A stretch of DNA of 64,000 nucleotides from a virus (IMGVR_UViG_3300032312_001422:32001-96000), one strand, 5' to 3'. Counted from the stretch's first letter, positions 47,688 through 50,110 are shown. The notes: generated by a model from the sequence alone, not told the origin. Made by a program: numbers and translations.

Positions 47688-48479
47688 ATGTCATTCTATG
47701 AAAAATTAGACTTTATCAAATATGATCATGACCGCCTGGTGACCGATGTGCAACAACATGTGTTCAGTCTGGGACAAGCTGTTATACAGGGCGAGGAATA
47801 TGAAACCGATGCCTACAAGGGTTTTGGTGGATGGAGTCTGCAGAGTCAAACCGGAGACTGGCAAGACGGCTGGGAATTTTTTCAAAACGAAGAAGGCACC
47901 ACTATTGAAGAAGTATTCTTTCCCAAGGATGCTAACAATTACACTACCTTAAAATACTTTAATATTGCACATTCTTTAGAGTACAAAAAGCCCACACAGG
48001 GCTATTGCGGTGAGATTGCCGAGGTGATTGATCAAATAGAGGCATTCGGCTTGACACCTAGACGAGCCAGAGTAACCTGTTTAAAAGCTGGTAGCAAAAG
48101 CCTAGTACACAGAGATTGTGGTGAAAACCAATACATGGCACGTATACACATACCCCTGATCACCAATCCTGAGTGTACTTTTACTGCCGAAGGAGAAACC
48201 TTATACATGGAACCCGGTACGGCCTACATGGTCTGGGTAAATGTGTGGCATCAGATTCGCAATGATTCGGAACAAGATCGATATCACATAATTATGGATG
48301 CTTACGATACCAGACATGTCACAGATAAGTTCAAGTACATGGGTGATATTAGCCAGTTGGAAACCTTTGCCAACGAATTGCGGCAACAGGTTGATCAAGC
48401 TGTTGTTACTGCAGATTTGGAACAAAAGTTTGAAACTGAATTGGCAAAATGGCGAACTAAATCCAAGGTTGACACATAA
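47688..48479 (+). CDS. Asp/Asn beta-hydroxylase-like 2OG oxygenase
   Basis: RARVTCL...VHRD...RIHIPLITNP...WHQIRN.S..DRYHII. Confidence 0.8.
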   Translation: MSFYEKLDFIKYDHDRLVTDVQQHVFSLGQAVIQGEEYETDAYKGFGGWSLQSQTGDWQDGWEFFQNEEGTTIEEVFFPKDANNYTTLKYFNIAHSLEYKKPTQGYCGEIAEVIDQIEAFGLTPRRARVTCLKAGSKSLVHRDCGENQYMARIHIPLITNPECTFTAEGETLYMEPGTAYMVWVNVWHQIRNDSEQDRYHIIMDAYDTRHVTDKFKYMGDISQLETFANELRQQVDQAVVTADLEQKFETELAKWRTKSKVDT

Positions 48480-48497
48480 GTTTAATAAGTATATAAT
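48469..48497 (+). promoter_or_regulatory. Consensus sigma70 promoter of tmRNA
   Basis: TTGACA-N17-TATAAT perfect match. Confidence 0.85.
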
Positions 48498-48503
48498 ATT
48501 AAT

Positions 48504-48803
48504 ATTGTTGTAATTCCTTCAAATTGAAGGCGCTGTGGACGGGAGTTCGATTCTCCCCGGGTCCACCAAAAGGAGATTAGCATGGATCATGAAGCTGTAT
48601 TGCTTGGTGCATTTGTTCTAATAGGATTAGTCCTAGTCTTTTTTTGATGGGCCCGACCGGTTTCGACATGGTGAGCTAGAAGAGAAGGAAACAGGACACA
48701 GATAGTCCTAAAAAGTAAATAACGTAAACGCAAACGACGAACAGTTCGCATTGGCAGCCTAACAGCCGCCTAGGGTAGGAAATACCTCGTAACAGAAATC
48801 ACC
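48504..48803 (+). ncRNA. ssrA: Circularly permuted (two-piece) tmRNA
   Basis: T-arm GGGAG-TTCGATT-CTCCC and CGGGTCC-A-CCA (ends 48568) precede 5' end GGGCCCG (48649); G3:U70 pair; tag ANDEQFALAA-stop at 48730-48762; ends approximate. Confidence 0.9.
48582..48647 (+). CDS. 21-aa hydrophobic peptide ORF inside tmRNA intervening segment
   Basis: AGGAG at 48571, MDHEAVLLGAFVLIGLVLVFF-stop. Confidence 0.45.
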   Translation: MDHEAVLLGAFVLIGLVLVFF

Positions 48804-48823
48804 AGAGCCCCTTCGGGGGCTCT
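48804..48823 (+). terminator. GC-rich hairpin after tmRNA
   Basis: AGAGCCCC-TTCG-GGGGCTCT. Confidence 0.75.
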
Positions 48824-48844
48824 AATATTTCCATACAAACACAC

Positions 48845-50110
48845 ATGAAAAAAACGTCACTGACAACCATTGCCGCCAGTACAATTGGCACAGTATTTGA
48901 ATGGTATGATTTTGTTATCTTTGGCTTGGCCAGTGTTCTTGTTTTTAATAAATTGTTTTTTCCAAACATTGATCCAGCTCTGGCCCTGGTAGTGTCAATG
49001 CTGGCCTATGCGGTGGGCATTGTAGCACGACCATTGGGTGGTATCATCTATGGCATGATAGGCGACAGGTTTGGTCGAAAACGCATGTTGACCACTACCA
49101 TGTTGCTTATGGGCATCAGTACTTTTATAATTGGTGTGTTGCCTACATATGATGCTATTGGAATATGGGCACCTGTTATTTTGATCTTGCTAAGAATTAT
49201 ACAAGGTATTGGCATTGGCGGCGAGTGGGGAGGAGCCAGTGTTATAGTACAAGAACATGCACCCGACAACCGTCGTGGTTTTTATTGTAGTTTTGTACAA
49301 ACAGGACTGCCTATGGGAATGTTAATGGCATCGGGTATATTTGCTGTGCTGAATTTGATGTTGAGCGAACAAGAGTTTCTTGCCTGGGGGTGGAGAATCC
49401 CGTTTCTGTTGAGTGCAGTCTTGGTGATTATTGGCACAGTTCTTAGACATCAAATTTTAGAAACTCCGGTGTTTTTAAAACTAACACCTCCCACAAATCC
49501 CATTAACGAGCTATTTACAAAATATCCAACAACCTTGTTCAAAGGTATCGGACTTAAAATAACAGAAAGTGTTTGGTTTTTCATAGTCACAGGTTTCATT
49601 GTCGGCTATGCTGTAAACAATTTTAATATACCAAAAAAAGATCTGTTACAAATTGTAATGATGGCCAATGCTGTCAGTATTGTGTGGACCGTGATAGTGG
49701 GTTACGTGTCAGATCTAATAGGACGACGTCCAATATTTTTCTTTGGATCTGTTTTTACAATGATCATGCCGTTTCCATTATTTTATTTGGTTGGCACCGG
49801 CGAGTTTGCAATGATTGCCACAGCAATGATAATAGGACAATGTATTGGTAGTACCACAATGTTTGCTGTTTTATCATCATACCTGCCAGAGATATTTCCT
49901 CCTAGTGTACGAAGCATAGGCAGTAGTTTGAGTTTCCAACTTGGAGCCGCTGTAACCGGTGGCATAGTTCCTGTGTTGGCCGCCTGGGCAGTTGGATACT
50001 GGGGTAGCAACTATGCTGTTTGTATCATCATGATGCTGTTTGGTGCAATTACTTTTGTATCTGCTTACAGGTCTAAAGAAACATTTCGCTTGGCGACAAA
50101 TAAATTATGA
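48845..50110 (+). CDS. MFS transporter, metabolite:H+ symporter (ShiA/ProP-like)
   Basis: GTVFEWYDF, RPLGG..G..GDRFGRK, QGIGIGGEWGG, SDLIGRR; 12 TM. Confidence 0.92.
   Translation: MKKTSLTTIAASTIGTVFEWYDFVIFGLASVLVFNKLFFPNIDPALALVVSMLAYAVGIVARPLGGIIYGMIGDRFGRKRMLTTTMLLMGISTFIIGVLPTYDAIGIWAPVILILLRIIQGIGIGGEWGGASVIVQEHAPDNRRGFYCSFVQTGLPMGMLMASGIFAVLNLMLSEQEFLAWGWRIPFLLSAVLVIIGTVLRHQILETPVFLKLTPPTNPINELFTKYPTTLFKGIGLKITESVWFFIVTGFIVGYAVNNFNIPKKDLLQIVMMANAVSIVWTVIVGYVSDLIGRRPIFFFGSVFTMIMPFPLFYLVGTGEFAMIATAMIIGQCIGSTTMFAVLSSYLPEIFPPSVRSIGSSLSFQLGAAVTGGIVPVLAAWAVGYWGSNYAVCIIMMLFGAITFVSAYRSKETFRLATNKL

What the first reader, a model, noticed from the sequence alone, without database searches (positions are those of the whole stretch)
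48469..48823. Circularly permuted two-piece tmRNA in a phage
A perfect sigma70 promoter is followed by the acceptor piece (T-arm, CGGGTCC-A-CCA), an 80-nt intervening segment, the coding piece starting GGGCCCG (G3:U70 alanine identity) with tag ANDEQFALAA, and a terminator hairpin. Permuted tmRNAs are established in alphaproteobacteria, some cyanobacteria and a betaproteobacterial lineage; I recall a near-identical tag in Dechloromonas. A permuted copy in a phage is unusual and hints at the host lineage.
Basis: partly seen in the sequence, partly recalled or inferred. Interest (0 to 1): 0.8.

Follow-up and report, generated by a model that had tools for sequence, protein, structure and literature searches.

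The report
Phage two-piece tmRNA with spacer minigene
A 289-kb uncultured phage really does carry a rearranged ("two-piece") gene for tmRNA, the RNA that rescues stalled ribosomes; such phage genes are already known, but the 80-base stretch that is cut out of this one looks like a tiny gene for a 21-residue membrane peptide.

Summary
ARAGORN and two Rfam models (beta_tmRNA 160 bits, tmRNA_permuted 116 bits) call a circularly permuted tmRNA at 48469-48827. It has a 12/12 sigma-70 promoter, an 80-nt spacer and tag ANDEQFALAA. The carrier is a genuine jumbo T4-like myovirus with portal, sheath, tube and baseplate genes, and the gene lies 80 kb from the contig end.

The reading is only partly right. 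Phage two-piece tmRNAs are published (Melnitz and pelagimyophages, PMC9004378), and I found at least 93 viral copies with this same tag. The RNA does not reveal the host. Bacteria with this tag, Dechloromonas included, have one-piece genes. The window's gene sits in a phage-only clade, 55-60% identical to bacterial beta-type genes. Cultured Xanthomonas and acidobacterial phages also carry permuted genes.

What I add: the spacer holds AAGGAG-N6-ATG and a 21-codon hydrophobic ORF ending one base before the coding piece. Its SD is locked in a covarying 14-bp stem. Two close homologs and a wider peptide family exist. Of 36 such spacers, 31 are open in frame (5.6 in shuffles). Variable sites show codon periodicity (p=4e-7), and two family members hold a DUF2061 gene in the same slot. 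The T-arm, acceptor stem and spacer are swapped together as one cassette. I found no paper on this. This scan has noted spacer genes before on other phage DNA.

The parts
48469..48497 (+). sigma-70 consensus promoter (TTGACA, 17 nt, TATAAT). The -35 box overlaps the last codons of the upstream hydroxylase gene.
   Evidence: 12 of 12 matches. The same promoter is kept in the syntenic relatives L050/L069. 23 of 65 family upstreams score at least 10/12.
48506..48568 (+). Acceptor piece: 5' strands of helix P2, T-arm (48541-48557), acceptor 3' strand CGGGUCC (48558-48564), discriminator A, encoded CCA (48566-48568). The 5' end is inferred from the promoter and the start of the Rfam model.
   Evidence: Rfam alignments. 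RNAalifold on 20 genes shows compensatory changes in P2, T-arm and acceptor stem.
48569..48648 (+). Intervening segment (spacer), 80 nt, closed by a stem. In the precursor, 48567-48580 pairs with 48633-48646.
   Evidence: MFE fold, z = -3.6. The closing stem covaries, U:A to A:U at columns 65/164. Spacer ends pair in the family, 10.5 of 14 nt against 2.3 in shuffles.
48570..48575 (+). Shine-Dalgarno AAGGAG, 6 nt before the ATG, sequestered in the closing stem.
   Evidence: Sequence; fold.
48582..48647 (+). Spacer ORF: 21 codons plus TGA, peptide MDHEAVLLGAFVLIGLVLVFF. The stop ends one base before G1 of the coding piece.
   Evidence: Homologs in L192 and L240. 31 of 36 SD+ATG spacers are open to this stop against 5.6 in shuffles. 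Codon-position bias 59/23/78, p = 4e-7. GRAVY 2.06. A DUF2061 gene sits in the same slot in L028 and L044.
48649..48827 (+). Coding piece: acceptor 5' strand GGGCCCG (48649-48655), conserved GGUUUCGAC (48659-48667), P2 3' strands, a hairpin, the mRNA-like region and the 3' hairpin.
   Evidence: Rfam beta_tmRNA alignment over model positions 1-331; covariation.
48730..48762 (+). Tag reading frame: resume codon GCA, ANDEQFALAA, stop TAA, preceded by GUAAAC.
   Evidence: ARAGORN. 14 synonymous nucleotide versions of the same tag in the family. GUAAA(C/U) precedes the resume codon in 83 of 85.
48804..48823 (+). 3'-terminal hairpin (8 bp, UUCG loop), a probable weak terminator followed by AAUAUUU.
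   Evidence: Last helix of the beta_tmRNA model. Not called as a + strand terminator. L050/L069 have a proper U tract here.
47688..48479 (+). Upstream neighbour, an Asp/Arg beta-hydroxylase-like gene and synteny anchor. Not part of the RNA.
   Evidence: Pfam PF05118 9.5e-14. 92-93% identical and directly upstream of the tmRNA gene in L050/L069.
48845..50110 (+). Downstream neighbour, an MFS transporter gene starting 21 nt after the hairpin. Not part of the RNA.
   Evidence: Pfam PF00083 5.5e-33, phrog_2034 3.5e-54.

Best explanation
This is a phage-encoded, circularly permuted tmRNA gene of the beta type. It is transcribed from its own consensus sigma-70 promoter, so probably early, by host RNA polymerase, as one precursor of about 320 nt. 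Host tRNA-processing enzymes cut the precursor at the encoded CCA end (48568) and at G1 (48649), the latter by RNase P. The two pieces stay base-paired through the acceptor stem and helix P2. The RNA is charged with alanine through G3:U70. Together with the host's SmpB (the phage record has none) it enters stalled ribosomes and adds ANDEQFALAA, which marks the products for host proteases. That would keep ribosomes free during infection. In addition, the 80-nt spacer is itself a minigene: AAGGAG, 6 nt, ATG and 21 codons for a polar-headed, strongly hydrophobic peptide of single-membrane-span type. Its SD is paired with the ORF's own 3' end in the stem that closes the spacer. Translation is therefore most likely confined to the short time before that stem forms, or to the unprocessed precursor. 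The block of T-arm, acceptor stem and spacer moves between phage tmRNA genes as one cassette. Shown here: gene identity, phage origin, covarying structure, ORF conservation and coding signatures, and the cassette swap. Inferred: processing, charging, tagging, timing, translation of the peptide and its membrane role. My confidence is about 0.9 for the tmRNA part and about 0.65 for the peptide being translated.
For: tmRNA identity: ARAGORN permuted call with tag; RF01850 160 bits and RF04321 115.8 bits; 24 of 39 consensus pairs with compensatory changes and an invariant G3:U70; precursor fold z = -3.6; U(-5)A(-4) context before the resume codon and 14 synonymous versions of the same tag. Phage origin: portal 6.7e-110, sheath 5.8e-189, baseplate 1e-268, tube and fibres; portal about 50% identical to Atu_ph07, PA5oct and GAP32; same locus in related contigs of 104 and 357 kb. 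Own promoter, 12/12. No SmpB in the record. Minigene: SD and ATG spacing; homologs in L192 and L240 and a wider family of 22-34 aa peptides, with spacer lengths 80/83/86/89 nt; 31 of 36 spacers open in frame against a mean of 5.6 and a maximum of 12 in 300 shuffles; variable columns 59/23/78 by codon position, chi-square p = 4.4e-7; mean GRAVY 1.89; spacer 90% identical between the window and L192 while the flanking RNA is 34-60% identical; the same slot holds full-length DUF2061 genes (E 3.5e-20 and 3.7e-21) in L028 and L044 of the same tag family; all 13 parsed bacterial beta-type spacers are 24-42 nt with no SD or ORF. Cassette swap: alignment with L050/L069.
Against: The window's exact peptide type has only two relatives. 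The last codons (VFF-stop) are dictated by the closing stem, so part of the peptide's conservation is RNA conservation. The AAGGAGATT invariance in alignment A1 follows from my search pattern. The SD is fully paired in the predicted precursor, which could mean little or no translation. 48 of 67 unique spacers in the tag family lack such an ORF, so the peptide is dispensable for tmRNA function. The 21-aa peptide matches no Pfam family. The record is about 80% complete, so a phage smpB cannot be excluded.
Confidence: 0.7

Rival explanations
1. The tmRNA is functional but the spacer ORF is never translated. On this view the A/G-rich 5' strand and U-rich 3' strand of the closing stem only mimic an SD and hydrophobic codons, and the stem serves processing alone.
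For: The SD is fully sequestered in a 14-bp stem. The stem is present in ORF-less spacers too, and in the bacterial gene L294. A stop codon at -4..-2 occurs in 83 of 85 spacers with or without an ORF, and it pairs with the CCA end. Most spacers have no ORF.
Against: This does not explain the in-frame openness of 31 of 36 spacers against 5.6 expected, the three-base periodicity of substitutions (p = 4e-7), length changes in whole codons, or a recognisable Pfam protein (DUF2061) in the same slot.
Confidence: 0.22
2. The RNA is a decoy that blocks host trans-translation, for example by titrating SmpB, rather than a working rescue RNA. This has been proposed for the tRNA-domain-only molecule of mycobacteriophage DS6A.
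For: The phage record has no SmpB, so the RNA must compete for the host's. The decoy precedent is cited in PMC4131195.
Against: The gene keeps a complete tag frame with a canonical resume context and an ALAA end, preserved through 14 synonymous versions in the family. It also keeps the full beta-type body, model positions 1-331. A decoy would not need these.
Confidence: 0.06
3. The gene is host DNA: a bacterial ssrA at a prophage border, or a chimeric assembly, not a phage gene.
For: tmRNA genes are common integration sites, and IMG/VR records can include host flanks (general knowledge; PMC4383910 listed).
Against: The gene lies 80 kb from the nearer contig end, among phage genes on the same strand. 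It has the same locus and neighbours in other large viral contigs. No bacterial genome searched has a close copy. The tree places it in a phage-only clade.
Confidence: 0.02

Closest known systems
Phage-encoded two-piece tmRNAs of aquatic T4-like myophages (Methylophilales phage Melnitz and pelagimyophages; Buchholz et al. 2022, PMC9004378)
   Same: A permuted ssrA carried by a large aquatic T4-like myophage, sitting behind an early-type promoter. Its phylogeny does not follow the host.
   Different: Those genes are alpha-type and are described as controlled by a glutamine riboswitch. This one is beta-type (RF01850), and the window gave no riboswitch match. That paper does not describe a coding spacer.
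Betaproteobacterial two-piece tmRNA (Rfam RF01850; Sharkady and Williams 2004, cited in PMC9004378 and PMC11915505)
   Same: Same architecture over all 331 model positions, a similar tag (ANDE-x-FA-x-AA) and a stem-closed spacer ending UGAU as in L294.
   Different: Only 55-60% identical to the bacterial genes, and outside both bacterial clades. The spacer is 80 nt with SD and ORF, against 24-42 nt without either in 13 bacterial genes.
One-piece tmRNAs of Rhodocyclaceae (Dechloromonas, Uliginosibacterium), Limnobacter and Pasteurellaceae
   Same: Identical tag peptide ANDEQFALAA.
   Different: They have standard gene order. Similarity to the window is limited to about 50 nt around the tag.
Small hydrophobic bacterial and phage membrane peptides (type I toxins such as TisB and Ibs, small membrane regulators, holin-like peptides); from general knowledge
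   Same: Size (21 aa), a polar head followed by about 17 hydrophobic residues, and an SD occluded by RNA structure, as in many type I toxin mRNAs.
   Different: No sequence match to any family, no antisense RNA looked for, and the gene is embedded in a stable-RNA precursor rather than in its own mRNA. This is resemblance only.

Membership tests
Permuted (two-piece) tmRNA, Rfam RF04321 / RF01850 | Covariance-model score above the curated cut-off | tested here: met
   RF01850 160 bits (cut-off 84); RF04321 115.8 bits (cut-off 47).
Permuted (two-piece) tmRNA, Rfam RF04321 / RF01850 | Permuted order: the acceptor piece ending in CCA lies upstream of the coding piece, whose 5' end completes the acceptor stem | tested here: met
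   CGGGUCC-A-CCA at 48558-48568 pairs 7/7 with GGGCCCG at 48649-48655. Seven covarying versions of this stem occur in the family.
Permuted (two-piece) tmRNA, Rfam RF04321 / RF01850 | Alanine identity pair G3:U70 and a canonical T-arm | tested here: met
   U:G is invariant at alignment columns 58/171 in 20 of 20 genes. The T-arm is GGGAG-UUCGAUU-CUCCC, with 4 of 5 pairs covarying.
Permuted (two-piece) tmRNA, Rfam RF04321 / RF01850 | Tag reading frame with an Ala resume codon and a protease-recognition end | tested here: met
   GCA resume codon, ANDEQFALAA, UAA stop, with GUAAAC upstream.
Permuted (two-piece) tmRNA, Rfam RF04321 / RF01850 | Precursor processed into two RNAs; alanylation; tagging with SmpB | not testable with these tools
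No SmpB gene in the phage record, so host SmpB would be needed.
Betaproteobacterial two-piece tmRNA lineage (as a line of descent) | Nests within, or is close to, bacterial beta-type genes | tested here: not met
   55-60% identity to L292-L294. The window falls in a phage-only clade, 100/91 and 97/88 support. 401 Burkholderiales genomes gave only matches of about 50 nt.
Melnitz/pelagimyophage-type phage tmRNA | Alpha-type structure and an associated glutamine riboswitch | tested here: not met
   The best clan model is beta, not alpha. Only tmRNA families passed the gathering score in the 64-kb window. Alpha-type phage genes form a separate clade.
Protein-coding gene (spacer ORF 48582-48647) | Start signals, conserved open frame, codon-periodic substitution, homologs | tested here: met
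   AAGGAG-N6-ATG. 31 of 36 spacers open in frame against 5.6. Codon positions 59/23/78, p = 4e-7. Homologs in L192 and L240.
Protein-coding gene (spacer ORF 48582-48647) | Evidence of translation | not testable with these tools
   No ribosome profiling or proteomics available. The SD is paired in the predicted precursor.
Type I toxin-like / small membrane peptide | Membership of a described family, or a cognate antisense RNA | tested here: not met
   No Pfam match for the 21-aa peptide or for the 34-aa relatives. Antisense RNA was not examined. Only the hydrophobic single-span character is met (GRAVY 2.06).

The most novel reading that the evidence does not exclude
The part of a stable-RNA precursor that is thrown away during maturation doubles as a messenger. 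In this phage tmRNA lineage the stem-closed spacer is a slot for small genes, here a 21-residue membrane peptide. Expression of that gene is tied to transcription and processing of the tmRNA, because its SD is masked by the stem that also presents the RNase P and CCA processing sites. The tRNA-like core plus spacer is exchanged between phages as a mobile cassette.
Probability: 0.55. Interest if true: 0.72.

Novelty: new variant of a known kind. Interest (0 to 1): 0.55.

Why it matters
The tmRNA alone adds one more member to a published class of phage genes. It does show that a beta-type, phage-only lineage with one fixed tag is very common in large freshwater-type phages, and that the gene form says little about the host. 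The spacer minigene is the more useful part. If it is translated, it is an example of a protein gene nested in the excised segment of a stable RNA, with built-in structural control of its ribosome-binding site. It would also show that annotation pipelines, which mask RNA genes and ignore ORFs under 30 codons, systematically miss a class of phage membrane peptides. The cassette swap gives natural variants for testing what the peptide does. Cultured phages with related unannotated genes, Xoo-sp13 and Tunturi_5, offer experimental entry points for processing.

Tried and rejected
1. GenBank phages (blastn, distant mode) hold no close copy; only T-arm-sized hits came back.
3. My first regular expressions for the T-loop were too strict and parsed few genes. 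I replaced them with an acceptor-stem pairing rule. 9 of 94 genes stayed unparsed.
4. A glutamine riboswitch or other Rfam element in this window or in alpha-type spacers: none at gathering score.
5. A pattern search for more copies of the window's peptide type gave only L192 and L240. L330 is an ordinary gene start.
6. The one 'bacterial' carrier of the phage-type gene is a 23-kb contig of a Haliscomenobacter MAG. It has no PHROG hits and only a TctC-family gene in Pfam, so I cannot say whether it is a mis-binned phage contig.
7. A literature search for the tag strings found nothing. Sharkady and Williams 2004 (PMC516066) is not held.
I therefore make no claim about Polynucleobacter or Methylophilaceae, though the 1.7-2.3 Mb genomes made me consider them.
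9. Host prediction from tRNAs is impossible, because the record has none.

Full report
**Observation.**
- The promoter TTGACA-17-TATAAT lies at 48469-48497 and matches 12 of 12 positions.
- The T-arm is followed by CGGGUCC-A-CCA, ending at 48568.
- An 80-nt spacer runs from 48569 to 48648.
- GGGCCCG at 48649 completes a 7-bp acceptor stem with G3:U70.
- The frame GCA...UAA at 48730-48762 encodes ANDEQFALAA.
- A GC-rich hairpin lies at 48804-48823.

ARAGORN calls one permuted tmRNA with this tag and nothing else in the window. Rfam gives beta_tmRNA (RF01850) 160 bits against a cut-off of 84, over all 331 model positions. It also gives tmRNA_permuted (RF04321) 115.8 bits against a cut-off of 47. 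The one correction concerns the 3' hairpin: the U tract after it is weak (AAUAUUU), and the terminator scan did not call it on the + strand.

**Is it in a phage?** Yes.
- The window is bases 32001-96000 of a 288,815-bp IMG/VR record, rated about 80% complete, with 42% G+C.
- The record encodes a portal (phrog_213, 6.7e-110), tail sheath (5.8e-189), tail tube, baseplate wedge (1.1e-268), baseplate hub and several tail fibres.
- Its portal is about 50% identical to those of the jumbo T4-like myophages Atu_ph07, PA5oct, Phosso and GAP32.
- The tmRNA gene lies 80 kb from the nearer contig end. Its neighbours are phage-type auxiliary genes on the same strand: radical SAM, 2OG-Fe(II) oxygenases, a desaturase, a hydroxylase, an MFS transporter, methyltransferases and DNA ligase, most with PHROG matches.
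- Related viral contigs of 104 and 357 kb (L050, L069) have the gene at the same locus, directly after a hydroxylase that is 92-93% identical.
- The record has no tRNA gene and no SmpB gene, so the RNA would have to work with the host's SmpB.

**Structure.** The precursor folds into the expected T-arm and acceptor stem with a z-score of -3.6. In an alignment of 20 related genes, RNAalifold predicts 39 pairs. They cover helix P2, the T-arm, the acceptor stem, the spacer-closing stem and one body hairpin, and 24 of them show compensatory changes. The G3:U70 wobble is invariant. Across the tag family the acceptor stem occurs in seven mutually compensated versions. The six bases before the resume codon are GUAAA(C/U) in 83 of 85 genes, and the same tag peptide is written in 14 synonymous ways. 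These are the marks of a working tmRNA rather than a relic or a mere tRNA-domain decoy.

**How common, and is it known?** Phage two-piece tmRNAs are in print. Buchholz et al. 2022 (PMC9004378) describe one in the OM43 myophage Melnitz and in pelagimyophages. Using ARAGORN they counted 53 two-piece genes among 402 phage tmRNAs, 50 of them from aquatic samples. The 2025 tmRNA database lists 79 phage sequences (PMC11915505). ARAGORN called a permuted gene with this tag in 93 of them, on contigs of up to 357 kb. A permuted tmRNA in a phage is therefore not unusual.

**Host lineage.**
- In one genome per prokaryote species, 41 loci encode this tag. All are standard one-piece genes, from Rhodocyclaceae (including Dechloromonas and Uliginosibacterium), Limnobacter and Pasteurellaceae. 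The single exception is a 23-kb contig of a 'Haliscomenobacter' MAG, which carries the phage-type gene.
- Beta-type permuted genes are rare among Burkholderiales: 3 of 151 sampled genomes. They cluster in one family where 15 of 41 genomes have them, and in a group of 1.7-2.3 Mb genomes, 3 of 41 in their family.
- With spacers removed, the window's gene is 84% identical to its syntenic phage relatives but 55-60% identical to the bacterial genes.
- A DNA search of 401 Burkholderiales genomes found only matches of about 50 nt around the tag.
- In a maximum-likelihood tree of 107 genes the window falls in a phage-only clade of six (support 100/91), inside a phage-only side of 79 rows (97/88). The bacterial genes form two clades elsewhere. 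Because cassettes recombine (see below), the tree is only a rough guide.
- Two cultured jumbo phages carry unannotated permuted tmRNA genes that ARAGORN misses: Xanthomonas phage Xoo-sp13 and Tunturiibacter phage Tunturi_5, whose host is an acidobacterium.
- Melnitz already showed a phage tmRNA that does not match its host.

The beta type points at most to an old betaproteobacterial origin of this phage lineage, not to this phage's host.

**The spacer.** I noticed on first reading that the 80 nt between CCA and G1 hold AAGGAG (48570-48575), six bases, ATG (48582) and 21 codons for MDHEAVLLGAFVLIGLVLVFF. The TGA stop ends one base before the coding piece. Earlier notes of this scan on other phage DNA report genes in such spacers. 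I treated that as a lead and tested it here.

- **Homologs.** L192 (MDNEAVLLSAFVLIGVVLVFF) and L240 (MDQEAVLVVAFLLIGLLFVFL, on a 317-kb contig) carry the same peptide type at the same place. A wider set of 22-34-residue peptides shares the design of an acidic head followed by a hydrophobic span. Their spacer lengths of 80, 83, 86 and 89 nt differ by whole codons.
- **Frame test.** The second scan required only CCA + AAGGAGATT + ATG. Of the 36 unique short spacers it returned, 31 are in frame and open up to the terminal stop. Shuffling the interior gave a mean of 5.6 and a maximum of 12 in 300 trials.
- **Periodicity.** Variable columns fall 59/23/78 on codon positions 1/2/3 (chi-square p = 4.4e-7). 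This fits selection for U at position 2, that is, for hydrophobic residues. Mean GRAVY is 1.89, and the window's peptide scores 2.06.
- **Relative conservation.** Between the window and L192 the spacer is 90% identical. The acceptor piece is 60%, the start of the coding piece 46% and the tag region 34% identical, and the tags are quite different peptides.
- **The slot holds real genes.** In L028 and L044, members of the same tag family, the spacer ORF is a full-length DUF2061 membrane protein (E 3.5e-20 and 3.7e-21).
- **Contrast with bacteria.** All 13 parsed bacterial beta-type genes have spacers of 24-42 nt without SD or ORF.
- **Optional cargo.** In the tag-defined family, which is unbiased with respect to the spacer, 19 of 67 unique spacers carry SD + start + an ORF of at least 15 codons.

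Caveats:
- The window's own peptide type has only two relatives.
- The invariance of AAGGAGATT in my alignment follows from the search pattern.
- The final codons are fixed by RNA pairing.
- The 21-aa peptide matches no family.

**Spacer structure and control.** In the predicted precursor, 48567-48580 (CAAAAGGAGAUUAG) pairs with 48633-48646 (CUAGUCUUUUUUUG). This 14-bp stem stacks on the acceptor stem and buries the SD. The stem covaries: U:A changes to A:U at columns 65/164, which turns the last codon from Phe to Leu in L240. End-pairing is general among spacers, with 10.5 of the first 14 nt paired against 2.3 in shuffles. The last four bases are UGAU or UAAU in 75 of 85 genes, and a stop codon sits at -4..-2 in 83 of 85, whether or not there is an ORF. 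UGAU also pairs with the ACCA end, with one C-A mismatch.

My inferences from this are as follows. A ribosome can load only before the 3' strand of the stem has been transcribed, or when the stem is opened. That would give few rounds of translation per transcript. Translation and tRNA-like folding of the same molecule exclude each other for that moment. Some relatives, including the window's nearest kin L050/L069, have a spacer ORF that runs 27 nt into the coding piece. That ORF could only be read from the unprocessed precursor, which suggests the precursor is the messenger.

**Cassette swap.** Against L050/L069, three parts are nearly identical: the promoter, the first 35 nt of the acceptor piece, and everything from UUUCGACAUGG onward. 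The block of T-arm, acceptor 3' strand, spacer and acceptor 5' strand is entirely different, yet internally compensated: CGGGUCC/GGGCCCG in the window against CAUCUCC/GGGGAUG in the relatives. The tRNA-like core and its spacer therefore move as a unit.

**Literature on the spacer.** I found no paper that describes protein-coding ORFs in tmRNA intervening sequences. The 2025 database paper mentions only a tRNA gene and a repetitive element there. Other searches gave nothing relevant. The library searched is incomplete, so this is 'not found', not 'absent'.

**Verdict.** The tmRNA is real, phage-encoded and most likely functional. As such it is a new member of a known kind. The host inference fails. 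The spacer minigene and the cassette exchange make this a variant that I could not find described. I put the chance that the 21-residue peptide is actually made at about 0.65. This scan has seen spacer genes before in other phage tmRNA genes. Here the cargo is the smallest class, a single-span hydrophobic peptide.

Noticed in passing
L322 (Xanthomonas phage Xoo-sp13, MN047793, about 39.0-39.5 kb) and L323 (Tunturiibacter phage Tunturi_5, PP885688, about 157.8-158.2 kb): Both cultured jumbo phages carry a permuted tmRNA gene: T-arm, CCA, a stem-closed spacer of 147 and 36 nt, a GGG start, and a tag ending AMAA. The genes are unannotated in GenBank, and ARAGORN does not call them.
   Followed up: partly
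L276, L278, L284, L181 and about 35 other loci: Alpha-type phage tmRNA genes (RF01849) also have CCA + AAGGAGATT + ATG. Their ORFs encode acidic peptides of 18-28 aa (for example with GDSDEE) and stop 74-92 nt before the coding piece. That leaves an unexplained conserved stretch, and no Rfam family matched there.
   Followed up: partly
L024:460-540 (contig of 353 kb): This spacer holds no ORF. It has a stem-closed insert containing a T-arm-like GGTTCGAATCC, possibly a tRNA-like fragment.
   Followed up: no
L176 (G002:C1, chromosome-sized contig of the 'Haliscomenobacter' MAG), 1564-1799: A second, weaker permuted-tmRNA match (RF04321, 67 bits) lies next to a tRNA-Thr gene in a Bacteroidota genome. 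ARAGORN does not call it.
   Followed up: no
whole record G000 (288,815 bp): A jumbo phage with a tmRNA gene but no tRNA gene at all (ARAGORN). No smpB was found either.
   Followed up: partly
L192, L240, L196, L281, L216 and others: Close relatives of this tmRNA's tRNA-like domain carry very long, unusual tags of 24-31 residues, for example ANADTFDFSAMSFTGNTVSGKSKVALAA and AKTSTGEVTVSAKNIKFRTLAAKGQSLAV. The tag module is therefore exchanged as well.
   Followed up: no
L050:2560-2700 and L069 (nearest syntenic relatives): Their spacer ORF (37 aa, hydrophobic core) crosses the predicted RNase P site and ends 27 nt inside the coding piece. Processing would turn it into a message without a stop codon, which is itself a substrate for tmRNA.
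   Followed up: partly
window 48824-48847: The MFS transporter gene starts 21 nt after the weak terminal hairpin and has no obvious SD. It may be read through from the tmRNA promoter.
   Followed up: no
L134:2638-3540: A TctC/Bug-family periplasmic receptor gene lies directly after the phage-type tmRNA on the contig binned as Haliscomenobacter. From general knowledge this family is typical of Burkholderiales, so the contig may not belong to that bin.
   Followed up: partly
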